From positions 89,724-153,723 of the forward strand of contig JAZNVZ010000007.1 of the NCBI GenBank assembly GCA_045593065.1: a stretch of 64,000 nucleotides of DNA, written 5' to 3'. The notes below the pieces were generated by a model. That model did not search any database. It was not told the DNA's origin and was given only the letters and a program-made list of their open reading frames with translations. A program made the translations under genes and the position numbers. The stretch is from Candidatus Enterousia sp. (lineage in GTDB: Bacteria > Pseudomonadota > Alphaproteobacteria > Rs-D84). Shown one piece after another: positions 5,692-52,985 of the stretch; within the stretch, counting starts at the first letter, position 1; each line of letters begins with the position of its first letter.

Positions 5692-5765
5692 AAAATATTT
5701 TCCTTGGTTGTATATGACACCACTATAAAAACAAAATTACACAGAATAAATACGATTAAAATCCA

Positions 5766-6689: not shown

Positions 6690-6730
6690 ATCTCTCCCCT
6701 TTTTATTGGTTTTATTATATCAAATATCAG

Positions 6731-6764
6731 CAATAAAAAACAGGGATTTTCATCCCTGTTTTTT
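6731..6764. terminator. bidirectional terminator after proS
   Basis: ACAGGGAT-TTTC-ATCCCTGT hairpin flanked by A8 and T8 runs. Confidence 0.6.
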
Positions 6765-8045: not shown

Positions 8046-8884
8046 TTTTTTATCTCTTTATCTTTTAATTCCATATATTTATTTGATACGATTTCGTGCA
8101 ATTTTTTTGCGATTTCTTTTCTGTCCATACCCGAAACGGGCGCGGGGTCCAAAGCCGTGATATGTACCGTCATACCACCTAATTTTGCAACATGAAATAT
8201 TTGACCAAATGCACTGCGTTCCACCCTGCAACGGGGACCTGCGGTCTGTTTCGCGTTATCAAAATACGCGTATTCGTTTGCCAGAACCTGGTCATTGACG
8301 CATTTATTGCGATGCGTGCGATATGTTATAACCATCGGTTGAATCATTAAATCAGGCACCGCTTCGACCATGTTAAACATCGCAGATTTAAATTCGCGAA
8401 CATATGCGCCGTTTGTGGTGGTACCTTCGGGAAATATTACCACAGGATAACTGGCAGTGTTTAATTGTGCCGTCATATCTGCCAATGCTTCGACTGCGTG
8501 GGATGGGCGTCTATCAACAAATACGACACCAAATTTTTTCGCAATCCAACCAACCAATGGATACGATGCAATATCAATTTTACCCACAAAAGAACAACCA
8601 TATCCCACCGGCATAGACATTAATTCAAACACAGAAATATGATTACATATGCACAACAACGGTCTGTGTTTTGATAATTTGCCATGTGTACGAACACGAA
8701 CCCCAGTGGTTGCGCATAATGTCCACATAAAAAATCGCATGTATTTAACAGAAAAACGTCCACGCGGTATCAACATAATAATTGGAACCTGGGCAAATAC
8801 CACAGCAACAAACAATGTCGCACGAACAAATGCAAACACAGTTTCAAAAATATTTGATTTACATCTATCTGCCAACACTTTCAT
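8042..8884 (-). CDS. olsA: lysophospholipid acyltransferase (PlsC family), likely OlsA given its position
   Basis: HX4D motif CNHISVFE and the FPEGT motif. It lies immediately downstream of an OlsB-like gene. Confidence 0.7.
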   Translation of the reverse strand: MKVLADRCKSNIFETVFAFVRATLFVAVVFAQVPIIMLIPRGRFSVKYMRFFMWTLCATTGVRVRTHGKLSKHRPLLCICNHISVFELMSMPVGYGCSFVGKIDIASYPLVGWIAKKFGVVFVDRRPSHAVEALADMTAQLNTASYPVVIFPEGTTTNGAYVREFKSAMFNMVEAVPDLMIQPMVITYRTHRNKCVNDQVLANEYAYFDNAKQTAGPRCRVERSAFGQIFHVAKLGGMTVHITALDPAPVSGMDRKEIAKKLHEIVSNKYMELKDKEIKK

Positions 8885-8897
8885 TGTTCATACCTTT

Positions 8898-9860
8898 TTA
8901 TTCTTCGTATTCAGTTTTATCTGCATCATTGATGTATTCAGCATCCGCCGCATCTTCGCGCAATAAAAACGCAAATACAGAACGCGCAACCTGGACCGCG
9001 CCCTTGACAGGCGATGTTATGATTTTACCCAATGTTTGGATAAAACTGGTTGGTAATTCGAAATCTTGACCTTCGAATTTTTCATCTGTGCCAAAGAAAT
9101 GTTTTTTATACACCGCATCCATGTTTTTAGTTTGCAGCATAACAAACACATCATACGAATTAAACGGTTTATCAATAAACACACCACGACCAAATGTTGC
9201 ATTGATACGCAAATAGCCCTTGACCAATGGGGTCATTTGACGCATTGCCTCGGCCCGGTCAACAAACACGCGTGGCAATATATTCATACGGGTCAATTTT
9301 GGATTTACACCGTCAACCAATTTTGTTGTATCAACCGTTGCACGCAATGCCAATGGCGACAAATGATTGTAATACAAATAAGAAATCGCCTGGGCAGACA
9401 TAGCCGGGTTTGTGCCAGGCCACGATGCAACACCAAACACAATTCCAATTTTATTACGAACAATATAATCACCTAAACCAACCCACAACAATCGCATAAC
9501 CAATGAATTATCGCGATATTCTGGGGCAACGCACGCACGCGACATTTCGGCAATATTTGCACCAGATTTTTTAATTTTAGAAATATCAAATTCGCTTTCT
9601 GTGTAAAAACCACCCATTTTTTCCGCAGCATCACGATTTATAATTCGATATGTACCAACAACCGCCCCATTGTGAAACACCGCCAAATATTCGGCGAAAC
9701 GGTCATAAGAGTCATATTCTTCGCGTAATTGTTTTTGTTCTTCGGTGGCAGATGCGCCTTCTTCTTCGACAAAGCATTTATAACGCAATGCGCGCACCTG
9801 GCGGCGTTCTTCCTTGGTACGAGTCATACGAACCTCGAAATCGCGAACTTTTATAGTCAT
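8898..9860 (-). CDS. olsB: ornithine-acyl-ACP N-acyltransferase OlsB-like (GNAT/hemolysin-like)
   Basis: N-terminus FEVRMTRTKEERRQVRALRYKCFVEEEG matches the OlsB signature (LEVRLAR..AEI.AAQ.LRY.VFYEE.G). Its length is ~300 aa and the OlsA-like gene is adjacent. Confidence 0.65.
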   Translation of the reverse strand: MTIKVRDFEVRMTRTKEERRQVRALRYKCFVEEEGASATEEQKQLREEYDSYDRFAEYLAVFHNGAVVGTYRIINRDAAEKMGGFYTESEFDISKIKKSGANIAEMSRACVAPEYRDNSLVMRLLWVGLGDYIVRNKIGIVFGVASWPGTNPAMSAQAISYLYYNHLSPLALRATVDTTKLVDGVNPKLTRMNILPRVFVDRAEAMRQMTPLVKGYLRINATFGRGVFIDKPFNSYDVFVMLQTKNMDAVYKKHFFGTDEKFEGQDFELPTSFIQTLGKIITSPVKGAVQVARSVFAFLLREDAADAEYINDADKTEYEE

Positions 9861-9926: not shown

Positions 9927-10958
9927 TTATTTTAATTTATTAGACAATTCTGCAATCGCGATTGCGTACCAATTTGAATTATTCCATTTTTTAATACGAT
10001 AGAAATTTGGGTATGTTAAATATGCAACCTTGTAAGATTGTGCATCAACATCGTTATCAGGCGATGACACCATATTAAATGCACCAGTATCATTATTATC
10101 TGCAACCAAACCAACCACAATATCTGTGCGATTTAACGGGGTGCCATCGGCGCGCACAACACCCATATCTGCCCATTTAGAATACGAATATTTTTTGTCG
10201 CCGTTTGTTAAACCTGTATCAAAATCCGCGGGAATCAAAACTTTTTGCACAATCGGTTCGTTTGCCGCCCAGCCCAATTTACCCAGATAATTGCCGGCAC
10301 TGAACATTGCGTCACTGACATTGTTTATAATATCAATTTTGCCGTCACCATTACCGTCTGTGCCGTATGCCGCAAGTGTTGTTGGAATAAATTGGAAATG
10401 CCCCATGGCACCTGCCCAACTGCCATGAATACTGTTTATATCCAACTGATTTGTATCGGCAATTTTCATCAATGCCAACAGTTGTTTTGTGAAAAATGTT
10501 TCACGCCGTCCATCATACATCAATGTAAAGAAAGCGTCTTTTAATCGATATGCAGATTTTACCGCGCCATAATTGGATTCCATTCCCCAAAACGCCAGAA
10601 TTACATTTTGTGGCACACCATATCTGGCAAAAGTTTTATTCAACAATGTTGGATATTTTTTTGCCATTGCACGACCAGAACGCACGCGTTCGGCACTGAC
10701 TGTGCGCCCCAGATAATCGTTTAATGTCAATTTGAATTCACTTTGGTTTTTGTCGTTATAAACGATTTTTGGAATAAAGACCGGCCCTTTTAATGTTGCA
10801 TCGATTGTTGCCGCAGAAATGTTATCGCGCTGTGCGGCTGTGCGAACAGAATCTTGCAATTCATTCCAACGGTCAAAATCAAAATCACCATTTGCCGATG
10901 CCACACCAGACATCATGGCAAACAACGCGCTATAAAACAATACGCCAAATTTTTTCAT
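9927..10958 (-). CDS. mltB: lytic murein transglycosylase (MltB family)
   Basis: Signal peptide; ILAFWGMESNYG catalytic Glu motif; AGAMGHFQFIPTT. The ORF may start at M1 (10970) or at MKKFGV. Confidence 0.7.
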   Translation of the reverse strand: MKKFGVLFYSALFAMMSGVASANGDFDFDRWNELQDSVRTAAQRDNISAATIDATLKGPVFIPKIVYNDKNQSEFKLTLNDYLGRTVSAERVRSGRAMAKKYPTLLNKTFARYGVPQNVILAFWGMESNYGAVKSAYRLKDAFFTLMYDGRRETFFTKQLLALMKIADTNQLDINSIHGSWAGAMGHFQFIPTTLAAYGTDGNGDGKIDIINNVSDAMFSAGNYLGKLGWAANEPIVQKVLIPADFDTGLTNGDKKYSYSKWADMGVVRADGTPLNRTDIVVGLVADNNDTGAFNMVSSPDNDVDAQSYKVAYLTYPNFYRIKKWNNSNWYAIAIAELSNKLK

Positions 10959-10980
10959 ATCATAAACCACCTATTTATTT

Positions 10981-12429
10981 CTAGAATGAATATTTTACAC
11001 CCAAATGCAAGCCAAAAGAACGCCAGGTCGCTTCTTTTAATGCGTCTGTTACGTGTTCTGTGGATGCGGGGTATCTTGTTGCAACAATATCATAATCATT
11101 GTTACCAACGGGCACCTCGGTATATTCGGTATATTCTGCCCAATAAATTTCGCCACCAATTTTTCCAACATGGAAATAATTTGTATCGGCCTTGATTGAT
11201 AAATGTAATCTGTCAGACAATTTCAAATCATATTCCATTTCCAATGAATATGCCAATGCACCGTTGTCGCCTTCGTCCAAGAAACTGGGGTTTTGTTGCC
11301 AATCTGTACGATTTGGCCATATACCTTCGGATGAATATTTCGGCATACTGATTTGACCATAGAAACGCAATTTATCGGTCAATGTCATTTGTTTTTCAAT
11401 TTCTAATCCAATATAAAATCCAGACCATGTTGTGTTATATTCATGCGTTTTCCCAGATACCAAAATTGGGCCATCACCACCAATTACAACACATTCGTCT
11501 GGGCCTACACCCCATGGCACATAAGGATTCGCCGCATCATACACATAATCAGACACGGTTAATGAATTATCAACATTTACATTTGCAACCTGAATTTGTT
11601 CGGGTGACACACAGACCTGGTAATAATTATCAACATAGTTTTCGGCCTGGTCCACAGGAATTGAATAATAAACACTCAAATCATTCGGGTCGCCAAACAC
11701 ATAATTTCCGTCTGCGGTCATTAATGGAATATAGACACCTTGGTTTGGATAATAATGATTACCCATTTCCAAATTATGTTTGAATATTTCGTATCCAATA
11801 ATTGGGGTCAATTTCCAACCAGCGATACTCCAAATATTTCGTGCACCAACACCAAAACGCATGTGATGACTTTCGCCACTTTGGTCGCCAACAGAAATTG
11901 TAAATATACCATCGTTTGGTCTGGAATCATCATACGGTCGCAAATCATAATCCATCGACAAACCCCCAGATGACATCTTGCCGTATGTATATTCGCCAAA
12001 TGCAGTTAAATCAAAATTACGCACAGTAAAATTATAACGACCACCAACCTGGAATTCGTTAAACATCATGTCGTCCCATTCCAGAACAGAATTAACACTG
12101 GTGGTAAATTCAAAATCTGCGAAACGGCGGTTATACCCACCATACACATAAAAACCGTTATTGGTCGCCGCCGGTTGTGCAATTCCGTTCGCCGTTACCA
12201 TACCCGCATAACCGGGAACACTTGTACCTTTTGGAACGCGGTAAGAGTATGTATTGGAAGAAACAACCTGTTTGTTGGTCGGCAAATAACTGGCTTGGGA
12301 CACATTTTGATAATTCGAACGCGCCACAGAACCGTAATTTTGATAATAAGGCGGCACCCCTTCGTTGCTGGCCAACGCGGGCGATACGGCGCAGATTCCC
12401 AATAAAAATGCAATACTATCCTTCCTCAT
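10981..12429 (-). CDS. outer membrane beta-barrel protein (Tyr/Gly-rich)
   Basis: Signal peptide MRKDSIAFLLGICAVSPALA. Alternating hydrophobic beta-strand pattern. C-terminus ...LGVKYSF ends in an aromatic residue. Confidence 0.55.
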   Translation of the reverse strand: MRKDSIAFLLGICAVSPALASNEGVPPYYQNYGSVARSNYQNVSQASYLPTNKQVVSSNTYSYRVPKGTSVPGYAGMVTANGIAQPAATNNGFYVYGGYNRRFADFEFTTSVNSVLEWDDMMFNEFQVGGRYNFTVRNFDLTAFGEYTYGKMSSGGLSMDYDLRPYDDSRPNDGIFTISVGDQSGESHHMRFGVGARNIWSIAGWKLTPIIGYEIFKHNLEMGNHYYPNQGVYIPLMTADGNYVFGDPNDLSVYYSIPVDQAENYVDNYYQVCVSPEQIQVANVNVDNSLTVSDYVYDAANPYVPWGVGPDECVVIGGDGPILVSGKTHEYNTTWSGFYIGLEIEKQMTLTDKLRFYGQISMPKYSSEGIWPNRTDWQQNPSFLDEGDNGALAYSLEMEYDLKLSDRLHLSIKADTNYFHVGKIGGEIYWAEYTEYTEVPVGNNDYDIVATRYPASTEHVTDALKEATWRSFGLHLGVKYSF

Positions 12430-16551: not shown

Positions 16552-16664
16552 ATAAACTGAACATGAATTTATATCAAAACAACGCGTTATTTTCGCGCTG
16601 TTTTTTTATTTGTTTTATGACCTAAAATATGATAAAATATTTATAAAAAGTAGGAGTGATATCG

Positions 16665-18980
16665 ATGAAAAGATTAGTTGTTGTTTTAAGCAGTTTGTTG
16701 GTTTTGCCCGCATTTGCAGAGGTTGCACCGTCTTTCTATGATGAAGAATTGGTGTTCGCTGATGCAGAATTCGGTGATGTTGACCCAGACATTGCAGACC
16801 AAGACCAAGAACCTGTGGCAAAACCCCAGGCCGCAAAAAAGCCCACGGTGGCAAACGCACGCAGCGCGACAAACACCCGCGCAACAACCGCGCGTACAAC
16901 AACAACCAGATCTGGGGTATCTGCACGCGTTCCAACAATACGCGCAAATACCACGACATCACGCGCAATATCTGGTCGTACATCATCTGCAACAACACCT
17001 GTACGCGCAACACCTGGGGTGTCTGCACGGCGTACGGGAACATATGGAAACACAAATGCACGCAGTGGCACCAAGGCACGTGCTGGGGTCGTTAACACAA
17101 CAACCAGATTATACAATGCAAACAATGCAACCGTGCAACAGCGCGGCAGTTCTGTTGGTGTCAGTGCCAGAAACAATACAATGCGTGCCGCGACATTAAC
17201 AACAACCACAACCGCAGACGATGTCATCGAAACAACAAATAATTTGGATACATTAAAATCTTTGACCGAATATTGCCAGACACAATACGCAACATGTATG
17301 GATAATTATTGCAATGTGTTGGACGATAACCAAGGACGTTGTTCTTGCTCTAAGAATTTATCAAATTATGAAAAGACCGAGGCCGCATTGCAATCTGCAA
17401 CCGAGGCATTACAAGATGTCGCACGCGCAATTCAATATATCGGTTTGACATCCGAACAAATTACAACACTGTTTGACGAAACCGAAGCCGAATTGACAAT
17501 GAAAAACCAAAAAGACAATTCCGCAATTCGTTCCGATTTGGACAAGGTTAAACGCATGATTGTTGATGTTAAATCTGGGACATCTACGGCATCTGTTGAC
17601 ACAGGTGGATTGAATCTGGATTTGTCTGGATTGTTAGATTTTACTATCGACAGTACCGGATTTGACCTATCTTCATTTATGACCAATACGACAAACACAA
17701 ACAGTATTTCAAATCAACGCGGCGAATCTTTGTTCAAAACCGCAACCGCGCGTTGCAAGGCATCTGTGTTGAATTCTTGCGTTGCCCAAGGGGTAGATGC
17801 CGCCATGATAACAAATTCTTATGATTTGGAAATTGACAAGTCATGTTTGGCATATGAACGCGCATTAAAAGATTCAAATACACAAATGACACAAACAGTT
17901 GCAAACGCAAAAGAAGTTTTGAAAAAAGCACGTTTGATGGTTGCACAAAATAAAAACGCATACGATTTACGCGGATGCGTCAGTGCATTGGAATCATGTA
18001 TGCAAGATGATTATGTATGCGGCAGTGATTACGAAAACTGTTTAGACCCAATCGGCCAATACATTGTAAACGGTGCCGTGGTCGTAGGTAGCATGCCAGG
18101 AAATAATACAGAAGGCGAAGACATCAGTTCAAGTTATTCCAATGATAATTTATTTAGGACATGGACTATCAATGCACAGAATCCTTGGGTTGCACAAACA
18201 AACTCCTCAAGTACTGATGCTAGTGATGATAATCCTAAATACAGCTCATTAGCAGATTATGTAGAAAGTAATGTGACTGCGGCGGCACCAAAGAAATCTT
18301 CTGACAAAATGATTAACTTTTTGCAGAACAAAATTGGTTGGCACGACAGCAAAAACAACAAAGATTATGGTATGTGTATGAGTGTATTAAATCAATGCCA
18401 AAAATACACATACGAAACCAAGGGCAATAAAACAACATACAATCCTGAAAATGATGTTATCAAGAATTTCTTGCAACGCGCATTGGTTCAAATCAAGGCA
18501 AAACAAGATGAATTATTGGCATCATACGGCGAAGATTGTATTAGCGATGTTCAAAGTTGTTTGTCCACAAACAATTACGATGAAAATTTGCCACAAAGCA
18601 CAAAAAGCCGTGCAGCAATCAATTCTTGCTATGCACAAATAAAAACATGTATGTCAATCAATGGCAATATCTATGGTTCGGTTACCCCGACCGAACTGCA
18701 AACATGGGTGACGGGCACATACAGTGCGATTGAATCAGTATCCACCCAGGCGGATTTAGATGCAGTGTGCGCTAACATCACTGACCCAGACACATGCAAT
18801 AACGCCAAAGTATATGTTGTTAGTTGCACTGGCAATACCAGTACATTAACACAAAATGTTTGTACATATAACGAGACATCTGGGTCATGTTCCAGAAAAG
18901 TTACTACTACTAATAGTATTCCGACACAATGTCCGGAGCCGACCACGGAGCCGACCACGGAGCCGACCACGGAACCGTAA
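16665..18980 (+). CDS. secreted cysteine-rich protein with Arg/Thr-rich low-complexity region and C-terminal (PEPTTE)n tail
   Basis: AGGAG RBS 8 nt upstream of the ATG at 16665 (the track start 16656 is GTG). Signal peptide MKRLVVVLSSLLVLPAFA. Residues ~60-190 are R/T/A/S-rich with three GVSAR motifs. About 30 Cys follow, and the protein ends with TEPTTEPTTEPTTEP. Confidence 0.6.
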   Translation: MKRLVVVLSSLLVLPAFAEVAPSFYDEELVFADAEFGDVDPDIADQDQEPVAKPQAAKKPTVANARSATNTRATTARTTTTRSGVSARVPTIRANTTTSRAISGRTSSATTPVRATPGVSARRTGTYGNTNARSGTKARAGVVNTTTRLYNANNATVQQRGSSVGVSARNNTMRAATLTTTTTADDVIETTNNLDTLKSLTEYCQTQYATCMDNYCNVLDDNQGRCSCSKNLSNYEKTEAALQSATEALQDVARAIQYIGLTSEQITTLFDETEAELTMKNQKDNSAIRSDLDKVKRMIVDVKSGTSTASVDTGGLNLDLSGLLDFTIDSTGFDLSSFMTNTTNTNSISNQRGESLFKTATARCKASVLNSCVAQGVDAAMITNSYDLEIDKSCLAYERALKDSNTQMTQTVANAKEVLKKARLMVAQNKNAYDLRGCVSALESCMQDDYVCGSDYENCLDPIGQYIVNGAVVVGSMPGNNTEGEDISSSYSNDNLFRTWTINAQNPWVAQTNSSSTDASDDNPKYSSLADYVESNVTAAAPKKSSDKMINFLQNKIGWHDSKNNKDYGMCMSVLNQCQKYTYETKGNKTTYNPENDVIKNFLQRALVQIKAKQDELLASYGEDCISDVQSCLSTNNYDENLPQSTKSRAAINSCYAQIKTCMSINGNIYGSVTPTELQTWVTGTYSAIESVSTQADLDAVCANITDPDTCNNAKVYVVSCTGNTSTLTQNVCTYNETSGSCSRKVTTTNSIPTQCPEPTTEPTTEPTTEP

Positions 18981-33529: not shown

Positions 33530-33603
33530 TGGCAGGGGCTAAAGGAATCGAACCCTTATCCGCGGTTTTGGAGACCGATATTCTACCGTTGAACTAAGCC
33601 CCT
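33530..33603 (-). tRNA. tRNA-Trp (anticodon CCA)
   Basis: The reverse complement folds as AGGGGCT acceptor, GTTC D-stem, CTCCAAA anticodon loop, GGTTCGATTCC T-arm and AGCCCCT-G-CCA. It sits in the canonical position upstream of secE. Confidence 0.85.
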
Positions 33604-33827
33604 ACAAACCCGTTTTATGCGCATAACACAACCGATATTCTGGCACAGGTTAGCACACGCCACATAAAAATCAAGTGAAAAATATTATAAAGATTTAATT
33701 ATTTTTTAGCAAGCAAAATCGTACCACCACGCCCCGGGACAAACACAAAAACACCCGATAAAAATTTATACAAACGATATATAAATTTTATTTTTTGTAA
33801 TTATATGCAAAATTATCACTTTTTTAC

Positions 33828-33857
33828 TTGCGCAACCATTATTATTTTGTCTACAAT
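33828..33857 (+). promoter_or_regulatory. candidate promoter of the virB8-9-10-like operon
   Basis: TTGCGC, 18-nt spacer, TACAAT, about 25 nt upstream of the GGGGAGGA RBS. Confidence 0.25.
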
Positions 33858-33868
33858 CCATTTGATAA

Positions 33869-34567
33869 ATGGGGAGGAAACCTTTGCAAGAACGCATAGA
33901 ACCGCCAATTTTAATGTCTCGATTAATGGCTTTTGTTATGGCAACGGCGGCGGTTGTGCTGGTTGTGTTGTTGATTACATTGGATAAAATGTTTCCATTA
34001 AATCGGCCACAGATATTCTTTTTAACAACCCAGGGTATTAATGACAAAGAAATAACTTTAACACAAATGCCCGAAGATTTAGATGGATATAAACGCCAGT
34101 TTATACGGGAATATATACGATATCGAAATGAAATTATCCCAAATATTTCCATTATGCGGGCCAGATGGGCGCCTACGCCAAATGGAATTATTAAATCTCG
34201 TTCAACTGATGCAATATTTGGTAATTTTGCCGATACTGAAATGGTCGCAATCATTCGTCAGGGCGATTTAGATGAACCGTTAACGATTTCTTGCGATGTT
34301 GAATTTCCTGCAAAAAACGCTGTCGTATCCAAGGTTGGCGAACCAAACACATATGTTGCTAGTTTTGATTATGTTTGCGAATATGGCGATTTGGCACCCC
34401 AGAAATATGTTCAAAAATACCAAATAATTGTAAAATTAGAATCAACAGAAAAAACGGCTATAAAATGGGCTGAACGCATGGAAAACCCATTGGGGTTCCG
34501 TGTGAGTGGATATACAGTGGCAAATGGACAAAGCGACCCTTTGAACTGGACCCAAAACGAAGAATAA
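33869..34567 (+). CDS. virB8: VirB8-like type IV secretion protein (bitopic, NTF2-like periplasmic domain)
   Basis: Size (~225 aa), a single N-proximal TM (LMAFVMATAAVVLVVLLITL), and a C-terminal NPLGFRVSGYTV motif matching the VirB8 NPLGFQVTSYR signature. The start is ambiguous: ATG at 33869, TTG at 33884 after GGAGGA, or ATG at 33914. Confidence 0.6.
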   Translation: MGRKPLQERIEPPILMSRLMAFVMATAAVVLVVLLITLDKMFPLNRPQIFFLTTQGINDKEITLTQMPEDLDGYKRQFIREYIRYRNEIIPNISIMRARWAPTPNGIIKSRSTDAIFGNFADTEMVAIIRQGDLDEPLTISCDVEFPAKNAVVSKVGEPNTYVASFDYVCEYGDLAPQKYVQKYQIIVKLESTEKTAIKWAERMENPLGFRVSGYTVANGQSDPLNWTQNEE

Positions 34568-34589
34568 AAATAAAAAAGGAAGGAAGAAA

Positions 34590-36101
34590 ATGTTAAAAGT
34601 GTTTAAATTTAGCGGTTTGATGTGCGCACTGATGTTTTCTGTGGTAAATATTGCGTTTGGCGCCCAAAAGGCATGGGAAAACCCAAATGCAAACATGACC
34701 GCGGGCAGTGTTAAACCTGGGTATGCACAGTTGGCGTGGGCCCCTGGAACCGTATTGCCATTAAAATTGCGTTCTGGGATGGTAACAATGGTGTCTTTAC
34801 CAAACGGTGAACAAATTGCTGATGCAGTTATTGGCGATACTAGCGCGTTTGACATCAATACTACCCAGGGCGATAGAATTTTATATATTACACCCGCTAG
34901 TGACAATACCGAAAACGACACAAATTTAATTGTGTTGGGACAATCTGGAAATAAATACATATTCTACTTAAAGAGCTCTGGGCTTGAAGATGATGAAATT
35001 GCATATTCCCAGGTTGATGTCGTTTTGGACAATGGCGCATCGTTGGCGGGCGCAAATATTGCATCTGGGGCCAGAACATCTGGGGGCATGAATTCAATAT
35101 TTAGAAAATCTGCATCAACCAGCAGTACCCTTGGCGTTGATGGCGAAGATTATGCCTGGATAAAATCTATGAAAATTGACCCGTCTGAATTTAGATTTGA
35201 TTTGGATATATTTGTTCCAAATCCAGACGATTATGTAATTGCGCCTGAACGCGTATGGCGCGACAAGATATTCACATATATCGATTTCGGCGATAAAGTT
35301 ATCGCGATGACACAACGCCCCGTGGTATCATTGATGGTCGAAGGTGGCGAATCCCCCGTGGGATTTCGTACAGATGGTCAAGACGGACGCTTATTAATTG
35401 TCGAGGCCGTTGGCGATATGGTTTTGCGCAGCGGTCAACGTATTGTTTGCATTAAAAAACGCGAAAAACCTTTCTTGATTGCAGATACGGCATCTGTAAT
35501 GGCATTGGCCGAGGCAAATGTAGCACAAAGTATGATGTCTGGGCAATCGTTGAACAATATTGCGTATAATGCGGATATGTCGGCGGTAAATGCATCTGTG
35601 ATGGATTACAGTGCGACACCAATGTATATGTCCAACACCCCAGATACAACAGGTACTGGTGTATATGTGCCTGCGGGTTATTCTATGACCCCAGATACGC
35701 AAATGTACGGTAATTCCGGGGCATATATGATTCCAACAAAACGCGAAACCGCCGGGTCATATTTGCCACAATCAAATATACCACTGATTACATCTAATCA
35801 ATCAGGGGTTGCAGTTGAATTAGCATCCGATACAAAAATGAAACCGTTGGATGATTATTGGTCTGAATTATTGGTGAAATTCAGTGGCGATGGTGGCAAT
35901 GGGTTGTTGACACCATATCAAAACAAGGTTTTCTTTGCCGTAGATTCCCAAGGTGTTGGGGATTTGGGCGCGACATCAACAACATCTAAATTGTATCGTT
36001 TGCGCATTGGACCAATCGCGGATGTGGATACTGCGCAAACATTGTGCGACAAACTGATGAAATTCCAGGTTTCAGGATGTCGTGTGGTTAGAATTCAGTA
36101 A
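34590..36101 (+). CDS. virB9: VirB9/CagX/TrbG-like protein with extra Ser/Thr/Met-rich region and C-terminal SPOR-like domain
   Basis: Signal peptide. Residues ~190-290 (KIFTYIDFGDKVIAMTQRPVVSLMVEGGESPVGFRTDGQDGRLLIVEAVGDMVLRSGQRIVCIKKR) match the VirB9 C-terminal (CagX-type) domain. The last ~70 aa (LYRLRIGPIADVDTAQTLCDKL...GCRVVRI) resemble a SPOR domain. Confidence 0.6.
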   Translation: MLKVFKFSGLMCALMFSVVNIAFGAQKAWENPNANMTAGSVKPGYAQLAWAPGTVLPLKLRSGMVTMVSLPNGEQIADAVIGDTSAFDINTTQGDRILYITPASDNTENDTNLIVLGQSGNKYIFYLKSSGLEDDEIAYSQVDVVLDNGASLAGANIASGARTSGGMNSIFRKSASTSSTLGVDGEDYAWIKSMKIDPSEFRFDLDIFVPNPDDYVIAPERVWRDKIFTYIDFGDKVIAMTQRPVVSLMVEGGESPVGFRTDGQDGRLLIVEAVGDMVLRSGQRIVCIKKREKPFLIADTASVMALAEANVAQSMMSGQSLNNIAYNADMSAVNASVMDYSATPMYMSNTPDTTGTGVYVPAGYSMTPDTQMYGNSGAYMIPTKRETAGSYLPQSNIPLITSNQSGVAVELASDTKMKPLDDYWSELLVKFSGDGGNGLLTPYQNKVFFAVDSQGVGDLGATSTTSKLYRLRIGPIADVDTAQTLCDKLMKFQVSGCRVVRIQ

Positions 36102-36134
36102 TATGTTATAAACAAAAACAATGGGTAAAGTGTT

Positions 36135-38582
36135 ATGGCAAACACAATAAAAGAAAAAATTAAAGAAACATTTTATGATACCCCTGTGGCAATTCGTTGG
36201 ATGCTGTTGGGTGCGGCTTTTATTGTCGTGTTGATATTAATATCACTGGTAATCAACAAACCAAAACACCAAAATAAAATCGTATCTGCTGATAAAAATG
36301 TTAATTTAATTATCAATCCAGATTCTGCTGAAATGTTGGCGATTCCTGTGGGCGGCAAAGAATCCAGGGTATTTAACATCAAATCAACTGATGCCGTTGT
36401 TATTGATTCTGTCAAAATCCAAGATTCTGTTGACGGTTTTTCTATATTAAACGCATGTCAAGGTGATGCAGGGTCGATTAATCAAAACATTGGATGTAAA
36501 ATAACCGCGGTGTTTGCACCCGCAAACGCAAACATTTCGGGGCAAGTCAAACTGATTATCACATGGCACGACAGCGAAGATTTAGGCGATTTAAACAAAC
36601 GCACAGACACAATAAATGTAAATGTGGGTGTCAAAGCCGACCCAGAACCAATTAATATACAACCGTCAAAACCGGCGGTATTACCTGAACCAGAACCGGA
36701 ACCCGAATTGGAACCGGAACCGGAATTTGAACCAGAACCCGAACCCGCACCGGTTGGAACGAAACCTGTTTTAGAAAAACCTGCGCCTGTAGAAAAATCT
36801 GCATCTGCGCGGAAACGCGTGGAAAGATGTTCCGATTTTGCTATGCCAGGATACAGTAATGCCGGCGCGCAAATTGGTTGGATAAAACCAAATGCGGGAC
36901 GTTATGAATTTCACCCTTTTTCCGACAAAGAATGCAATAAACCCACAGGAATTTACAATCCAAATACAGGTATAATTACCAGTATCGACAGCGGTAAAAA
37001 AATTGGAACAGACGCAGATCATGTGGCCAAAAATGTGGATTTGACGGTTGTACCAGCATTAACATCAAAACCAAAAACCACTGGGACAAGTGCATCGACC
37101 GGCACCCCACGCACAGTTGGAAAATCTCAAAATTTAAAAAACGAATTTGCCACAGAACCCGGAATGCACTTGATACAAAAAACAATAAAAGAAGAAACAT
37201 TAAAGGGTTCTGCAGATACGACAGAGGCGGTAATCAATTCACGCCCGTACGACAGAACATTTATATTGCGTCAATTTAAACCAATTCCTGCAACAATAGT
37301 GTCCGAGGTTCGCGCTGACCCATCTGTGTACGGATGTAATAACAAGGATGCCAATGGCAGTTGCGATGGTGGCAGTGGCATTCCTGTCCGCGCAACGGTC
37401 GACAGAAATGTTTATTCTGACAATGGACGCACAATTATCATTCCCACAGGCACATTGTTAATGGGGTATTTAACTGGGGATTTACCGGGACCATATAAAA
37501 CCATTGGTCGTATGCAAATCAAATGGTATCAATTTATTCGTCCAGATGGTGTGGAATTTAATTTTAGCAGTAATGACCAAGACCCGTATTCTGCCGATTC
37601 CCAAGGGCGCGTTGGGGTTCCCGGATATGGCAGTACGGATTATATTGAACAAATGGTTATGCCTTTGTTAACCGCGATGGTTCCTGCGGCCGTTAATATG
37701 ATTGCGCCAATCGCTGACACATTCGTTAATCAAATCGATTTAGATAACAATACTGTTGTGCAATCCGGCAAGGTGCGTTCATCAGAATTAGCCAAGAACG
37801 AGGTTATAACCGCGTGGAATCAGGTTGCACAAAAATTAATCGTTGATGCATTAGATAACACAGTGCCACCATTTTCAATCGCTGCGGGCACCCGTATTAC
37901 CGTATATTCGCCTGTGGATTTAATCGCCACATGCGACAAAACAGAAAACGCTGGCAAAAAATGTGCATTTGAAACTTATAACGCCAATCCACGCCGTCCT
38001 TGGAAAGGTTTAAAAGAGCAAGTAAAGGTGGATTGGAACGATTCATCATGGACAGGGCAAGTGCGTTCGTTTAATCTAGACCGGTTTTGTACAGGTGATG
38101 CCAGCAGCGGCAAAAGAACCGCAGATAACACCCAGGCAGCCGAAATTTCCGCCGCAGGGTATGATTACAGAACCGTATTGGCATATTGCCAATCCCAAAA
38201 TTATCAGGCAAAAAACCAGGCAAAATACGATGCGTATTATCAAAATCTGACCGCTAATGCCAAGAATACGAATAAGGTCGAAGTAAATGAAAATGATGGA
38301 AAACTTTCTGTCAAATATAACGACGAATTTAATAAAAATGTTCTGGGGTTGGAATACGAAACTGATGAAGAGGGAAATGAAACAGGTCTTATAAAGAATC
38401 CATTTGAAAAATCTTCGTCTGTGCCTGCAACAGAATCTGTGGGCAGTTTGGATTGCGATGGCACGGCACCTGATGCAAATGGATGTTGCCCTGGGGAAAC
38501 ATATACCGATATGGGCGACCAAGGATTTAACTGTTGCCCTGCGGGCGGCGGCGATTGTTTCCCACCGTTAAATGTAAATTAA
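36135..38582 (+). CDS. virB10: VirB10-like protein (815 aa) with (PE)n repeat and long Cys-rich C-terminal extension
   Basis: N-terminal cytoplasmic segment plus TM (WMLLGAAFIVVLILISLVI). Pro-rich PEPEPEPELEPEPEFEPEPEPAP. VirB10 barrel-domain motif GRTIIIPTGTLLMGYLTGDLPG. About 230 extra C-terminal residues end in DCDGTAPDANGCCPGETY...NCCPAGGGDCFPP. Confidence 0.65.
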   Translation: MANTIKEKIKETFYDTPVAIRWMLLGAAFIVVLILISLVINKPKHQNKIVSADKNVNLIINPDSAEMLAIPVGGKESRVFNIKSTDAVVIDSVKIQDSVDGFSILNACQGDAGSINQNIGCKITAVFAPANANISGQVKLIITWHDSEDLGDLNKRTDTINVNVGVKADPEPINIQPSKPAVLPEPEPEPELEPEPEFEPEPEPAPVGTKPVLEKPAPVEKSASARKRVERCSDFAMPGYSNAGAQIGWIKPNAGRYEFHPFSDKECNKPTGIYNPNTGIITSIDSGKKIGTDADHVAKNVDLTVVPALTSKPKTTGTSASTGTPRTVGKSQNLKNEFATEPGMHLIQKTIKEETLKGSADTTEAVINSRPYDRTFILRQFKPIPATIVSEVRADPSVYGCNNKDANGSCDGGSGIPVRATVDRNVYSDNGRTIIIPTGTLLMGYLTGDLPGPYKTIGRMQIKWYQFIRPDGVEFNFSSNDQDPYSADSQGRVGVPGYGSTDYIEQMVMPLLTAMVPAAVNMIAPIADTFVNQIDLDNNTVVQSGKVRSSELAKNEVITAWNQVAQKLIVDALDNTVPPFSIAAGTRITVYSPVDLIATCDKTENAGKKCAFETYNANPRRPWKGLKEQVKVDWNDSSWTGQVRSFNLDRFCTGDASSGKRTADNTQAAEISAAGYDYRTVLAYCQSQNYQAKNQAKYDAYYQNLTANAKNTNKVEVNENDGKLSVKYNDEFNKNVLGLEYETDEEGNETGLIKNPFEKSSSVPATESVGSLDCDGTAPDANGCCPGETYTDMGDQGFNCCPAGGGDCFPPLNVN

Positions 38583-38611
38583 AACGCGTGGAAAATAATA
38601 AAACCCAAAAA

Positions 38612-38640
38612 ACACACATCGAACGATGTGTGTTTTTTAT
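38612..38640 (+). terminator. rho-independent terminator after virB10-like
   Basis: ACACACATCG-AA-CGATGTGTGT hairpin followed by a T6 run. Confidence 0.6.
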
Positions 38641-38796
38641 TAAAATAAATCTATTTGTCGATTCGAATCGAATTAGGAAAATATTGCTAAAATGTCTGTT
38701 TTTCGATTCGAATTTCAACCATCGGTTGAAGTATTTGGCATATATATTTATTTTGTTATATAACAACAATGTATAAAAAACAAAAGGAGAATATCA

Positions 38797-39143
38797 TGAA
38801 CAAATTACAACAACAGACCCCCAGTAATATGGAAAAATTTCACAACGCAGAACAAATGTGGTTTTGGTTTTTATATTCTAAATCTGTACAATCCAGATTT
38901 TCAAATAATAAACCAAATGGGTCAAAACACATATGCGAACTGTTAGATGTTGAAACATTAATTACTAAATTATATTTATCAGGAAAATTAACAGCCGAAC
39001 AACTGCAAATCATGAAAAAATTCGGCGATCGGCGGCGCGCACCACACCAATACATCTGGGCAGAAAATCATGCCGCATATTTATGGGCCAGTGCCATGGA
39101 AACATTGGGCGATGCCGCACGCAAAAATGGTTGGATAGATTAA
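38797..39143 (+). CDS. hypothetical protein (115 aa)
   Basis: AAAAGGAGAAT RBS before the ATG at 38797 (the track ORF starts at 38769). No recognisable motif. Preceded by palindromic TCGATTCGAAT repeats. Confidence 0.45.
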
Positions 39144-39167
39144 AATAAATAAAAAGGCGATATAACA

Positions 39168-39521
39168 ATGACTATTATTGGGTTTGCAAAAAACACTTCG
39201 AAATGTTTACCACGCATATTGTGCGGTCAATTCAAACATTGTGCACTGATTACACAACACAACGATAAATTTGTTTTGCATCAATTTGTAAAACGAAAAT
39301 GTATTCGGCGTATTACAATTACAGAACGCGGACTGACCCAACTGGAATCGAATGGTTGGGTTTTTATTTATACAAAATTGCCGATACAATCATTTAATCA
39401 AAATGCATGGACATGTGTGAGTTATGTAAAACACGCAGTTGGAACGCATAATTTTTTAATTCAAACGCCAAATGGGTTATATAAATATTTACAAAAAAAT
39501 CTGCAAAAAAATCTGACATAA
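39168..39521 (+). CDS. hypothetical protein (117 aa), Cys/His-containing
   Basis: ORF downstream of the previous gene, terminated by a strong hairpin. A QNAWTC...H pattern is present but no family could be assigned. Confidence 0.4.
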   Translation: MTIIGFAKNTSKCLPRILCGQFKHCALITQHNDKFVLHQFVKRKCIRRITITERGLTQLESNGWVFIYTKLPIQSFNQNAWTCVSYVKHAVGTHNFLIQTPNGLYKYLQKNLQKNLT

Positions 39522-39540
39522 ATGTCAGATTTTTATTTTA
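39511..39540. terminator. bidirectional terminator (island 3' boundary / bamB-like end)
   Basis: ATCTGACAT-AA-ATGTCAGAT hairpin flanked by A- and T-runs. Confidence 0.6.
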
Positions 39541-51781: not shown

Positions 51782-52942
51782 TTAATGAAATACAAAACTG
51801 TCAATCCCGGCATTCGTGGCCGCATTGCGCAATTTTTGCGCCGCAGTTTCCGCAATATTATTCACACGCACACGAAATAGACCGCCGGATGCCGTCTCGA
51901 TTGTTGCGGATACACCCAATGCCTGTTCCACATTTTTAACCTGGCGCATTGCCGCATCACGCGATGAAAATGCACCAAATTGAACCCCGGACATACCGCT
52001 TGCTAAATTATTATTTTTTGGTTTATCTGTTGTATATTTTGCCATTGGGTTATTTTCATTTATTGGTTTTGTCGCATATGTTGGTGCGTATGTTTGATTT
52101 GTTGTCGCCGCAGATGTTGGATTATGCACAACCACAGGTTCTGCACCATTTTCCAACATTTTGAATCCACGATTTAATAAACTGGTCGCAACAGTTGAAC
52201 GCACATCTTTGTTTTCTGCACCCAACACAACCGCAATCAAATGACGACCGCCCCGCGATGCCGTTGCCACCAAAGAATATTTTGATTTGTTTGTAAATCC
52301 TGTTTTCATGCCATCGCACCCATCATATGATGTCAGCAATCGATTTCCATTGGTATATGTTTGACCATTATAGTTCCAACTTTTAATACCAAAATATTTC
52401 CAATATTGTGGAAAATGTTTATATACCGCAACCGACAATAACGCAATATCACGCGCAGTCGATAAATGGTCATCATCCGGCAGACCAGACGAATTTTCAA
52501 AATTTGTTTGTTCCAATCCAATTTCCGTTGCAACCTGGGTCATGAGTGATGCAAAATTCCCTTCTTTGCCACCTTTTAAATTTTCAGCCAACACACGCGC
52601 AACATCATTCGCACTGTGCACCGCAACGGCCTTAATCGCATCTTCGACCTTGATTTTAGACCCGGCCGGCAGTCCCAATTTTACAGGTTCTGCATTTGCC
52701 GCCGCATTTGACACAATCAAATAATCATCCAAATGTAAACGCCCGTGTTCCAACGCATTAAATGTCAAATACAATGTCATGATTTTTGTTAAACTGGCCG
52801 GGTAATTTGGAACATTTGCATTTTCAGAATACAAAACACGACCAGAATCCATATCTGCAACCAATGCCGCACGATATGGCGCCGCATGCGCAAATCCGCA
52901 CATGAACAAAATCGGCAAAACAAGTAGGATTTTTCTCATCAT
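51782..52942 (-). CDS. dacA: D-alanyl-D-alanine carboxypeptidase (PBP5/6 family) with C-terminal SPOR domain
   Basis: Signal peptide MMRKILLVLPILFMCGFAHA; SLTK, SAN and KTG motifs; C-terminal GVQFGAFSSRDAAMRQ...FRVRVNNI SPOR-like domain. Confidence 0.75.
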   Translation of the reverse strand: MMRKILLVLPILFMCGFAHAAPYRAALVADMDSGRVLYSENANVPNYPASLTKIMTLYLTFNALEHGRLHLDDYLIVSNAAANAEPVKLGLPAGSKIKVEDAIKAVAVHSANDVARVLAENLKGGKEGNFASLMTQVATEIGLEQTNFENSSGLPDDDHLSTARDIALLSVAVYKHFPQYWKYFGIKSWNYNGQTYTNGNRLLTSYDGCDGMKTGFTNKSKYSLVATASRGGRHLIAVVLGAENKDVRSTVATSLLNRGFKMLENGAEPVVVHNPTSAATTNQTYAPTYATKPINENNPMAKYTTDKPKNNNLASGMSGVQFGAFSSRDAAMRQVKNVEQALGVSATIETASGGLFRVRVNNIAETAAQKLRNAATNAGIDSFVFH

Positions 52943-52985
52943 GATATTCATGTTAGTAAAAATTATTGCCATCGGTCAATTAATT

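What the first reader, a model, noticed from the sequence alone, without database searches (positions are those of the whole stretch)
33604..39540. Orphan VirB8-VirB9-VirB10-like T4SS core module inserted beside tRNA-Trp/secE-nusG
Three consecutive genes on the plus strand encode a VirB8-like bitopic protein (NPLGF motif), a VirB9/CagX-like protein, and a VirB10-like protein. Their order, B8-B9-B10, is that of the type IV secretion core complex. They begin about 260 bp from the 3' end of tRNA-Trp, within an otherwise perfectly conserved ribosomal-protein/RNAP cluster, and end at a strong bidirectional terminator before yfgM/bamB. No VirB4, VirB11 or VirD4 ATPase, VirB2 pilin or VirB3 lies in or near the module. 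VirB10 is followed by two unknown small genes, not by virB11. Possible explanations are a scattered T4SS as in Rickettsiales, a degraded remnant, or a repurposed outer-membrane channel.
Basis: partly seen in the sequence, partly recalled or inferred. Interest (0 to 1): 0.7.

Follow-up and report, generated by a model that had tools for sequence, protein, structure and literature searches.

The report
Conserved VirB8-VirB9-VirB10 module in Enterousia
Three real type IV secretion genes (VirB8, VirB9, VirB10) sit at a fixed, inherited position beside secE in a tiny-genome gut bacterium (Candidatus Enterousia); they are under strong selection, and whether the motor ATPases lie elsewhere in the genome could not be tested.

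Summary
On the plus strand, 33869-38582 encodes a VirB8-like (232 aa), a VirB9-like (503 aa, with a C-terminal SPOR domain) and a VirB10-like protein (815 aa, with antenna helices and extra domains). Two small genes of unknown function follow. No other T4SS gene was found in the 64-kb window.

The word "inserted" is not supported. The window belongs to Candidatus Enterousia (order Rs-D84), gut alphaproteobacteria with genomes under 1 Mb. The order secE / B8-B9-B10-o4-o5 recurs in nearly all of the 80 species-representative genomes fetched. Composition matches the flanks, there is no att-like repeat, and selection is purifying (dN/dS about 0.01-0.25).

"Degraded remnant" is rejected.

The nearest relatives outside Enterousia (36-49% identity in VirB9) lie in complete, Rickettsiales-like clusters (VirB2-B3-B4-unknowns-B8-small ORF-B8-B9-giant B10-B11) or in split versions of them.

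My best reading (0.55) is that this is the envelope-spanning scaffold of a scattered, vertically inherited T4SS, with the ATPases elsewhere. The main rival (0.33) is a complex that works without ATPases. Local absence of the other parts in 83 Enterousia loci and a truncated VirB8 cytoplasmic tail favour it.

A genome-wide VirB4 search could not be run. It would decide between the two.

The parts
33604..33868 (+). Intergenic region between tRNA-Trp (minus strand, 5' end at 33603) and B8. It presumably holds the module's promoter. It contains no VirB7-like small ORF.
33869..34567 (+). VirB8-like bitopic protein, 232 aa. Very short cytoplasmic tail (hydrophobic segment from about residue 12), a transmembrane helix, then a periplasmic domain ending in the NPLGF motif.
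   Evidence: Pfam VirB8, 29.2 bits against a cut-off of 23.2. phmmer E about 1e-12 to VirB8 of complete clusters. Alignment A6. Tail length.
34590..36101 (+). VirB9-like protein, 503 aa. Signal peptide (by eye), then VirB9 N- and C-terminal domains (residues 47-290, nt 34728-35459), an invariant segment 293-326, a low-complexity linker, and a C-terminal SPOR domain (about residues 421-503, nt 35850-36098).
   Evidence: Pfam CagX 1.6e-22 and SPOR 1.8e-4. Alignment A1 shows residues about 182-326 almost invariant. dN/dS about 0.01 for residues 181-330. PDB sequence hits to VirB9 of X. citri and to TrwF.
36135..38582 (+). VirB10-like protein, 815 aa. Domains by residue:
- Transmembrane helix, 18-40.
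- ASH/PapD-like Ig domain, 58-166.
- Pro-rich spacer, 168-228.
- Small conserved beta domain, 232-292.
- VirB10 beta-barrel, 376-600, with two antenna helices at 501-533 and 550-575 (nt 37635-37859).
- C-terminal extension, 601-815, with a variable patch at 601-770 and an invariant Cys-rich tail at 773-812 (nt 38451-38570).
   Evidence: Pfam TrbI 6e-15. AlphaFold2 model, mean pLDDT 62.7. Foldseek hits to CagY, TrwE, X. citri VirB10, ComB10 and TraF, E 4e-9 to 7e-6. Conservation profile. Strain comparison.
38606..38639 (.). Perfect 15-bp hairpin flanked by A and T runs, right after B10. It is the likely terminator of the three-gene operon.
   Evidence: sequence
38796..39143 (+). o4: 115-aa helical, Trp-rich protein with no signal peptide and no known family. 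It keeps this position in 74 of 80 Enterousia species (median 66% identity). It is absent from relatives outside Enterousia. Whether it belongs to the system is uncertain.
39168..39521 (+). o5: 117-aa protein with invariant His24 and Cys83, among other invariant residues. No known family. It is present in 72 of 80 species. Whether it belongs to the system is uncertain.
   Evidence: The single-sequence AlphaFold2 model was unusable.
39507..39534 (.). A/T-rich 12-bp hairpin between the convergent o5 and bamB-like genes. It looks like a bidirectional terminator.

Best explanation
The three genes encode the envelope-spanning scaffold of a vertically inherited, Rickettsiales-like (rvh/Cag-like, P-type) type IV secretion system in Candidatus Enterousia, a gut alphaproteobacterium with a genome under 1 Mb that probably depends on a partner organism.

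Proposed roles of the parts:
- VirB10 is anchored in the inner membrane and crosses the periplasm. Its two antenna helices form the outer-membrane pore.
- VirB9 builds the outer-membrane core ring around VirB10. Its C-terminal SPOR domain, on a long flexible linker, ties the ring to peptidoglycan.
- VirB8 forms the periplasmic arches above the inner membrane.

The ancestral cluster looked like VirB2-B3-B4-(unidentified genes where VirB6-like genes would be expected)-B8-(small ORF in the VirB7 position)-B8-B9-B10-B11, as still seen in related gut alphaproteobacteria. It has been broken up. The energising and inner-membrane parts (VirB4, VirB3, VirB6, perhaps VirB11 and VirD4) are encoded elsewhere on the chromosome, as in Rickettsiales. 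The machine mediates contact-dependent transfer to or from a partner cell.

Shown: the homology, the domain anatomy, the fixed position, the strong purifying selection, and the complete clusters in relatives.
Inferred: the assembly, the pore function, the existence of the remaining genes elsewhere, and the substrate.
For: 1. Family matches for all three proteins.
2. The B10 model has the VirB10 barrel plus two long antenna helices. Its best structural matches are CagY, TrwE, X. citri VirB10, ComB10 and TraF.
3. The lineage is Ca. Enterousia / Rs-D84, with genomes under 1 Mb and a predicted symbiont or parasite lifestyle.
4. The same locus occurs in 80 of 80 fetched species genomes. Median identity to the window is B9 69%, against SecE 75% and YidC 60%.
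5. dN/dS is 0.01-0.25. The B9 C-terminal domain, the B10 barrel, and the antenna with its loop are nearly invariant. A working pore complex would explain this.
6. The nearest non-Enterousia VirB9 proteins (36-49% identity, also long, one with a faint SPOR hit) lie in complete clusters with VirB4 and VirB11 (L085; L086-88; L097-99). Others lie in split clusters: B2-B3-B4 plus unknown genes without B8-B10 (L089/90); small ORF-B8-B9-B10-B11 without B4 (L095); and the trio alone (L091/92). Fragmentation of one ancestral system among relatives is therefore documented.
7. Scattered T4SS genes are the rule in Rickettsiales, going by the abstracts of PMC2653234 (reduced rvh system) and PMC3518464 (two operons in Wolbachia) and by my own knowledge.
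8. VirB4 is the signature subunit of every T4SS described (PMC12857230). The prior for a conserved outer-membrane core without it is therefore low.
Against: 1. No VirB4, VirB11, VirD4, VirB2, VirB3, VirB5, VirB6 or VirB7 homologue was found in the 64-kb window or in 1.56 Mb of Enterousia loci, that is, within 10 kb of the module in 83 loci. The rest of any Enterousia genome could not be searched.
2. VirB11 does not follow VirB10 here. It does in L085, in L095, in the Erythrobacter plasmid, and (from my own knowledge) in Rickettsiales.
3. The VirB8 cytoplasmic tail is cut down. The transmembrane helix starts at residues 7-13 in the trio-only lineages (Enterousia, L091), against 32-45 in clusters that carry VirB4 or VirB11. 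In R388 the N-terminal VirB8 tails, which include this segment, bind VirB4 (PMC9259494).
4. The published genome analysis of Rs-D84, which includes two MAGs that carry this module (L055 and L081), mentions no secretion system. This is weak negative evidence.
Confidence: 0.55

Rival explanations
1. An ATPase-less, repurposed complex. Enterousia (and the L091-type sister lineage) has lost VirB4 and the rest of the T4SS. It kept only VirB8, VirB9 and VirB10 as a stand-alone trans-envelope structure: an outer-membrane pore or tether that links the inner membrane, peptidoglycan (through SPOR) and the outer membrane. Possible uses are passive or proton-motive-force-gated passage of large solutes, or attachment to a partner cell, in an organism that lacks standard transporters.
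For: - The trio is the only T4SS part found in the window and in all 83 Enterousia loci.
- No VirB11 follows B10, and there is no VirB7-like ORF.
- The VirB8 cytoplasmic tail, part of the N-terminal tails that bind VirB4 in R388, is truncated specifically in the trio-only lineages.
- B10 has gained extra domains: a PapD-like domain, a conserved beta domain, and a Cys-rich C-terminal extension that may stand in for VirB7 at the periphery.
- The Rs-D84 genome paper reports no standard transporters and no secretion system.
- Strong purifying selection shows that the trio has a function of its own.
Against: - No T4SS or T4SS-derived machine without VirB4 has been described (PMC12857230).
- Only about 7% of one genome, plus the same neighbourhood in other genomes, was examined.
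- Close relatives show that splitting the cluster into distant loci is common.
- B10 N-terminal tails are equally short in complete clusters.
- VirB8 tail length varies among T4SS families in general (my own knowledge).
Confidence: 0.33
2. A ComB-like DNA-uptake system. The trio is the outer part of a competence T4SS that passes DNA to ComEC, as in Helicobacter pylori, where comB6-10 form an operon without VirB11 or VirD4.
For: - B10 matches the NCBIfam ComB10 model (1e-11) and the ComB10 structure.
- ComEC is encoded at 55010-56998 in the window.
- In relative L095 the small ORF-B8-B9-B10-B11 block lies between ComM and ComEC.
- The absence of VirB11 and VirD4 next to B10 resembles comB.
Against: - ComB also needs ComB4 (VirB4), which was not found.
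- The VirB10 model scores higher than the ComB10 model, and CagY and TrwE are better structural matches.
- ComEC is widespread in alphaproteobacteria, and here its nearness reflects general conserved gene order.
- Relatives carry VirB11 and VirB2 pilins, which is typical of effector or conjugation systems.
Confidence: 0.08
3. A fragment of a mobile element (ICE or plasmid) recently integrated at tRNA-Trp and now decaying.
For: The module is next to a tRNA gene. The nearest cultured homologue is a plasmid conjugation system (Erythrobacter aureus, 37.5% identity in VirB9).
Against: - The same locus occurs in 80 of 80 species, with identities that track housekeeping genes.
- GC content is the same as in the flanks.
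- There is no att-like repeat.
- No integrase, relaxase or replication gene was seen.
- The module lies at the 5' end of the tRNA gene.
- All genes are intact and under purifying selection.
Confidence: 0.02

Closest known systems
Rickettsiales vir homolog (rvh) T4SS (Rickettsia, Wolbachia, Anaplasmataceae; PMC2653234)
   Same: An alphaproteobacterial, chromosomally fixed, vertically inherited P-type T4SS in reduced genomes. Its genes are split over several loci, and B8-B9-B10 are contiguous. The relatives of this module (L085, L086) show the rvh-like order B8-small ORF-B8-B9-B10-B11 and a B4 gene followed by several unidentified genes.
   Different: Here there is a single B8, no B7, and no B11-D4 after B10. 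B9 carries a SPOR domain, and B10 carries PapD-like and Cys-rich extensions. The presence of the B3/B4/B6 locus is unproven. The host is an extracellular gut lineage of unknown lifestyle, not a known intracellular bacterium.
T4SS clusters of related gut alphaproteobacterial MAGs
   Same: They are the closest sequence relatives: B9 36-49% identical, long, and one with a faint SPOR hit; B8 and B10 are homologous.
   Different: They carry VirB2, VirB3, VirB4, several unidentified genes, a small ORF in the VirB7 position, two B8 genes and VirB11. Their B10 is giant (1507-2717 aa). In L086-L090 and L097-L099 a type IVb pilus cluster lies upstream. Their B8 proteins have cytoplasmic tails of 32-45 residues.
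Helicobacter pylori Cag outer-membrane core (CagX, CagY)
   Same: The best structural match of the B10 barrel and antenna is CagY (6x6k, 6odi; E 4e-9 to 2e-8). As with CagX and CagY, the VirB9 and VirB10 homologues are extended by extra domains. One B10 segment varies between near-identical strains.
   Different: No CagT, CagM or Cag3 homologue was seen in the window's Pfam scans. The extension is C-terminal in B10, whereas it is N-terminal in CagY. Sequence identity is only 13-20%. Cag is on a pathogenicity island with its ATPases.
Canonical VirB/D4 conjugation outer-membrane core complexes (R388 TrwH/F/E, pKM101 TraN/O/F; Erythrobacter aureus plasmid NZ_CP031358)
   Same: The domain cores of VirB8, VirB9 and VirB10 and the gene order are the same. 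The antenna helices are present.
   Different: Those systems sit in one operon with VirB1-B7, B11, D4 and a relaxase. They have a VirB7 lipoprotein and no SPOR, PapD-like or Cys-rich additions.
H. pylori ComB competence T4SS
   Same: An operon with B8-B9-B10 and without B11 or D4. B10 matches ComB10. ComEC is present in the genome window.
   Different: ComB has ComB4, ComB2, ComB3, ComB6 and ComB7. None was found here.

Membership tests
P-type (VirB/D4-like) type IV secretion system | VirB8-family bitopic protein | tested here: met
   Pfam PF04335, 29.2 bits against a cut-off of 23.2. phmmer E about 1e-12 to VirB8 of complete clusters. Alignment A6 with an invariant N-P-x-G motif.
P-type (VirB/D4-like) type IV secretion system | VirB9-family outer-membrane core protein | tested here: met
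   Pfam PF03524, 80.8 bits against 34.2. TIGR02781 matches at 5e-15, below its equivalog cut-off. PDB sequence hits to VirB9 and TrwF.
P-type (VirB/D4-like) type IV secretion system | VirB10-family protein with an N-terminal transmembrane helix, a Pro-rich region, a beta-barrel and a two-helix antenna | tested here: met
   Pfam PF03743, 56 bits against 35. AlphaFold2 model with helices 501-533 and 550-575. Foldseek hits to CagY, TrwE, ComB10 and TraF.
P-type (VirB/D4-like) type IV secretion system | VirB4 ATPase, the signature subunit of all T4SS (PMC12857230) | tested here: inconclusive
   Absent from the 64-kb window and from within 10 kb of the module in 83 Enterousia loci.
P-type (VirB/D4-like) type IV secretion system | VirB7 lipoprotein encoded with B8/B9 | tested here: not met
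   No small lipoprotein ORF lies in the gaps 33604-33868 or 38583-38795. The 62-66-aa ORFs of relatives have no match.
P-type (VirB/D4-like) type IV secretion system | VirB11 and VirD4 ATPases; VirB2 pilin; VirB3, VirB5, VirB6 | tested here: inconclusive
   No match in the window or in the Enterousia loci with queries from the Erythrobacter plasmid and from the L085, L086, L093 and L095 clusters. Not testable genome-wide.
rvh-type (Rickettsiales) scattered T4SS | An operon B8-B7-B8-B9-B10-B11-D4, with duplicated B8, B9, B4 and B6 (defining features taken from my own knowledge of the rvh literature) | tested here: not met
   One B8 only, no B7, and a hairpin plus unrelated small genes after B10. 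Relatives L085 and L086 do show B8-small ORF-B8-B9.
rvh-type (Rickettsiales) scattered T4SS | The remaining genes present at other chromosomal loci | not testable with these tools
   Requires a whole Enterousia genome, for example OZ007020.1. Only about 21 kb of it (L063) could be read.
tRNA-associated genomic island / ICE | Patchy distribution, deviant composition, an integrase, and direct repeats that duplicate the tRNA 3' end | tested here: not met
   Present in 80 of 80 species. GC matches the flanks. No such repeats. No recombinase family appeared in the Pfam scans. The module lies at the tRNA's 5' end.
ComB-type DNA-uptake T4SS | ComB4 plus ComB2, ComB3 and ComB6-10, acting with ComEC | tested here: inconclusive
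   ComB10 model matches at 1e-11, below its cut-off and weaker than VirB10. ComEC is present. No ComB4, ComB2, ComB3 or ComB6 was found locally.

The most novel reading that the evidence does not exclude
Enterousia (and the L091-type sister lineage) keeps VirB8, SPOR-VirB9 and an extended VirB10 as a free-standing trans-envelope machine with no VirB4 or any other T4SS ATPase. It would be a secretion-system outer-membrane core turned into a constitutive pore or tether in a bacterium that has almost no conventional transporters. This would be the first T4SS-derived apparatus that works without the family's signature ATPase.
Probability: 0.33. Interest if true: 0.85.

Novelty: new variant of a known kind. 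Interest (0 to 1): 0.55.

Why it matters
Candidatus Enterousia is a widespread, uncultured gut lineage (human, rodent, ruminant, horse, bird). Its genomes are under 1 Mb, and it has no known way of obtaining metabolites or of interacting with a partner.

A T4SS core kept at a housekeeping locus across the genus, with parts almost as invariant as ribosomal proteins, is the first concrete candidate for its host- or partner-interaction machine. It also gives a marker locus for the clade.

If the ATPases are elsewhere, this extends the Rickettsiales-style scattered T4SS to an extracellular gut lineage, and it adds unusual parts (SPOR-VirB9; PapD-like and Cys-rich VirB10).

If the ATPases are absent, it would overturn the rule that every T4SS-type apparatus contains VirB4.

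One inexpensive genome-wide search decides between the two.

Tried and rejected
- **Exact look-up of the window's B9:** not on record.
- **Search for an Enterousia VirB4:** I queried the protein database with the VirB4 of relative L085. The 120 hits listed are all at least 71% identical to the query. The two I looked up lie in lineages of 35% and 52% GC that carry their own complete or split clusters. None of the listed VirB4 clusters shares a longest-contig length with any listed Enterousia B9 or B10 cluster. So no link could be made, and no exclusion either.
- **Viral-contig scan with the same alignment:** nothing found.
- **Cluster-member names:** only 'Alphaproteobacteria bacterium'.
- **Papers:** the 2023 Enterousia paper is not held. 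The 2025 paper has no supplementary files held as text. Literature searches for SPOR-VirB9, for Rs-D84 secretion systems and for incomplete T4SS found nothing relevant.
- **o4 and o5:** no Pfam, NCBIfam or PDB match, even with ortholog sets and profiles. No homologue in the relatives' loci.
- **Structure prediction for o5:** The single-sequence model was unusable (pLDDT 47), so the idea that o5 is a permuted papain-like (NlpC/LRAT-type) hydrolase rests only on the invariant His...Cys pair.
- **Unidentified genes of the relatives' clusters** (in the position where VirB6-like genes would be expected): no Pfam match and no homologue in Enterousia loci.
- **Genomic island hypothesis:** rejected.

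Full report
**What is there**

The plus strand between tRNA-Trp (33530-33603, minus strand) and the convergent bamB-like gene carries five ORFs:
- B8-like, 33869-34567, 232 aa.
- B9-like, 34590-36101, 503 aa.
- B10-like, 36135-38582, 815 aa.
- o4, 38796-39143, 115 aa. The start is set by an AAGGAG site.
- o5, 39168-39521, 117 aa.

A perfect 15-bp hairpin (38606-38639) follows B10. An A/T-rich 12-bp hairpin (39507-39534) lies between o5 and bamB.

Pfam places the three large proteins in VirB8 (29.2 bits, cut-off 23.2, C-terminal part only), CagX/VirB9 (80.8 bits) and TrbI/VirB10 (56 bits). It also finds a SPOR domain at the C-terminus of B9. NCBIfam agrees, below its equivalog cut-offs. B8 also aligns over its whole length with the VirB8 proteins of complete T4SS clusters.

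There is one correction: because the tRNA gene is on the minus strand, the module abuts its 5' end and is divergently transcribed.

**Anatomy of the proteins**

*B9.* It has a signal peptide (by eye), the two VirB9 domains (residues 47-290), a segment 293-326 that is invariant in 16 diverse homologues, a low-complexity linker, and a SPOR domain.

*B10.* I modelled it with a 40-sequence alignment (mean pLDDT 62.7, so only the domain level is reliable). The model shows:
- a transmembrane helix (18-40);
- a confident Ig-like domain (58-166), which Foldseek matches to ASH/PapD/MSP-like domains;
- a Pro-rich spacer;
- a small conserved beta domain (232-292);
- the VirB10 barrel with two long antenna helices (501-533 and 550-575);
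- a 215-residue C-terminal extension ending in a Cys-rich tail.

The barrel and antenna match CagY, TrwE (R388), X. citri VirB10, ComB10 and TraF, with E from 4e-9 to 7e-6.

Across 82 orthologues, the barrel, both antenna helices and the loop between them (NQIDLDNNTVVQSGKVRSS) are almost invariant. So is the Cys-rich tail.

*B8.* It has a very short cytoplasmic tail.

**Whose genome this is**

The B9 protein has more than 1400 close homologues in metagenomes. A scan of species-representative genomes found 255 matches. The best 80 are gut MAGs, many named Candidatus Enterousia. NCBI lists the genus as Alphaproteobacteria incertae sedis.

GTDB places Enterousia in the order Rs-D84. Its genomes are under 1 Mb, lack most biosynthesis, respiration and standard transporters, and point to an obligate symbiont or parasite (PMC12306168). 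One closed MAG chromosome is 958,618 bp (L063). Two MAGs from that paper (JBKSMY and JBKSMR) carry the module (L055 and L081).

**Not an insertion and not a remnant**

- In the 80 genomes, B8 is present in 79, B9 and B10 in 80, o4 in 74 and o5 in 72.
- They are always in the order secE / B8-B9-B10-o4-o5. Two exceptions show a local rearrangement upstream.
- Median identity to the window is 69% for B9, 66% for o4, 47% for B10 and 44% for B8. For comparison it is 88% for RpoB, 75% for SecE and 60% for YidC.
- GC content matches the flanks.
- No att-like repeat was found, and no integrase or relaxase.
- dN/dS against two other species is 0.01-0.25, and about 0.01 for the B9 C-terminal domain. Synonymous sites are near saturation, so these values are approximate.

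'Inserted island' and 'degraded remnant' are both rejected.

**Where the module comes from**

Among cluster representatives, only 470 match B9 at E of 0.001 or better. The nearest outside Enterousia are long VirB9 proteins at 36-49% identity. Their contexts form a series:
- **Complete clusters.** L085: VirB4, five unidentified genes, B8, a 66-aa ORF, B8, B9 (faint SPOR hit), a 2717-aa B10, then VirB11. L086-88 and L097-99 add VirB2 and VirB3 upstream, plus a divergent type IVb pilus cluster.
- **A split with only VirB2-B3-B4 and unknown genes** (L089/90).
- **A block of small ORF-B8-B9-B10(1507 aa)-VirB11** among housekeeping genes, without VirB4 (L095).
- **Unknown genes-B8-B9-(283 aa)-B10 followed by lspA** (L093).
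- **B9-B10 alone** (L084).
- **The trio alone after rpsB-tsf** (L091/92).

The order B8-small ORF-B8-B9-B10-B11 is that of the Rickettsiales rvh system, as I know it from the literature (PMC2653234 is the paper on that system). The nearest cultured relative is an ordinary conjugative VirB2-B11/D4/MobA system on an Erythrobacter aureus plasmid (37.5% identity in VirB9).

The Enterousia trio is thus a descendant of a complete P-type T4SS whose cluster has been broken up during genome reduction.

**Is it orphan?**

Locally, yes.
- Pfam scans of about 45 window ORFs found no T4SS ATPase, pilin or VirB6.
- tblastn and phmmer found only B8, B9 and B10. The queries were the cluster proteins of L085, L086, L093, L095 and the Erythrobacter plasmid, covering VirB2-B7, B11, D4 and MobA. 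The targets were the window plus 83 Enterousia loci (1.56 Mb).
- No VirB7-like ORF fits in the gaps.

Genome-wide, I could not tell.
- The metagenome scan failed.
- A protein search with a relative's VirB4 listed only hits at least 71% identical to the query; the two I checked lie in other lineages.

**Weighing the two live readings**

For a scattered but complete T4SS:
- VirB4 is the signature subunit of every T4SS described (PMC12857230).
- Split clusters occur in the closest relatives.
- Scattering is the norm in reduced alphaproteobacterial genomes.
- The pore-forming parts are under extreme constraint.

For an ATPase-less derivative:
- VirB11 and VirB7 are gone from the locus.
- The published Rs-D84 genome analysis reports no secretion system.
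- The VirB8 cytoplasmic tail is truncated. The transmembrane helix starts at residues 7-13 in Enterousia and L091, against 32-45 in clusters that have VirB4 or VirB11 next to them, and 24 in L093. In many Enterousia species an in-frame stop lies 12 codons or fewer upstream of the conserved RIEPP motif, so this is not a gene-calling artefact. In R388 the N-terminal VirB8 tails are what bind VirB4 (PMC9259494).

I put the scattered T4SS at 0.55 and the ATPase-less complex at 0.33. A ComB-like DNA-uptake role gets 0.08. ComEC lies at 55010-56998, and ComM and ComEC bracket the block in L095.

**Proposed mechanism (inferred from the families)**

- B10 spans from the inner membrane to the outer membrane, and a ring of its antenna helices forms the outer-membrane pore.
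- B9 forms the surrounding core ring. Its SPOR domain, on a linker of about 70-90 residues, reaches back to bind peptidoglycan.
- B8 forms the periplasmic arches.
- The B10 C-terminal extension may decorate the periphery of the ring, where VirB7 normally sits.

Between two strains whose B9 proteins are 99% identical, almost all B10 differences fall in residues 601-770. There dS is 0.26 and dN 0.16, against a background dS of 0.01-0.07. That is the signature of a recombined, variable segment.

**The two small genes**

o4 and o5 are specific to Enterousia, have no signal peptide and belong to no known family. A hairpin separates them from B10, and a locally repeated palindromic motif lies in front of o4. 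I cannot say whether they belong to the system.

**Novelty and verdict**

I found no paper that describes a T4SS in Enterousia or Rs-D84, or a SPOR-VirB9 fusion.

The finding is real and more interesting than a stray island. It is a genus-wide, highly constrained T4SS core in an uncultured lineage with a minimal genome. As it stands it is a new variant of a known kind.

It would become categorically new only if VirB4 proves absent. One profile search on the closed genome OZ007020.1 would settle that.

Noticed in passing
window 36135-38582 (B10 residues 601-770 = nt 37935-38444): Between the window and a strain whose B9 is 99% identical, about 45 of roughly 55 B10 amino-acid differences fall in the C-terminal extension. 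There dS is 0.26 and dN 0.16, against a background dS of 0.01-0.07. This looks like a recombined hypervariable segment inside an otherwise invariant protein. The Cys-rich tail just after it is invariant in 80 species.
   Followed up: partly
window 55010-56998 (+); locus L095 7164-21015: A ComEC competence channel gene lies 16 kb downstream of the module. In relative L095 the block of small ORF-B8-B9-B10-B11 is bracketed by ComM and ComEC. This may hint at a link to DNA uptake, or it may be coincidence.
   Followed up: partly
loci L086-L090 and L097-L099, positions 1-9000: In three related gut alphaproteobacterial lineages, a type IVb pilus cluster (TcpQ, secretin, PilO-like, T2SSE, T2SSF) lies directly upstream of the VirB2-VirB4 T4SS cluster and diverges from it. 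The arrangement is conserved as one large pilus-plus-T4SS region.
   Followed up: no
L085 11611-19764; L095 11563-16086: The relatives' VirB10 homologues are giant (2717 and 1507 aa), with the VirB10 domain at the C-terminus. This is reminiscent of CagY.
   Followed up: no
window 38650-38713: A 19-nt direct repeat (TCTnTTTnTCGATTCGAAT) containing the palindrome-like motif TCGATTCGAAT occurs twice between the B10 hairpin and o4. The motif occurs nowhere else in the window. It could be an operator for o4-o5.
   Followed up: partly
window 16656-18980 (+): A 774-aa secreted protein with a Ser/Thr/Arg-rich N-terminal region and many cysteines has no Pfam family. An orthologue is present in L007. 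It may be a surface or effector protein.
   Followed up: no
window 603-3278 (+): An 891-aa soluble protein with Lys/Pro-rich stretches has no Pfam family.
   Followed up: no
window 51782-52972 (-): A second SPOR-domain protein is encoded in the window: a DacC-like D-Ala-D-Ala carboxypeptidase (Peptidase_S11) with a C-terminal SPOR domain.
   Followed up: no
window 10981-12429 (-) and 9927-10970 (-): An outer-membrane protein matching Pfam 'Pom' (Protochlamydia outer membrane protein) lies next to an SLT_2 lytic transglycosylase.
   Followed up: no
locus L031 (CAVGNU010000001.1): A public record titled 'Bacteroides fragilis isolate ... cleanbin_000047' carries the full Enterousia rpoB...secE / B8-B9-B10-o4-o5-yidC locus (70% B9 identity). 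The bin appears to be taxonomically mislabelled.
   Followed up: no
window 39168-39521 (o5): o5 has invariant Cys19, His24, Gln39, Trp64, Cys83 and Thr100-Pro101. Cys83 sits inside a predicted helix (78-91) in a low-confidence model. A His...Cys order would fit a permuted papain-like (NlpC/LRAT-type) hydrolase, but no profile or structural support was obtained.
   Followed up: partly
   Followed up: no
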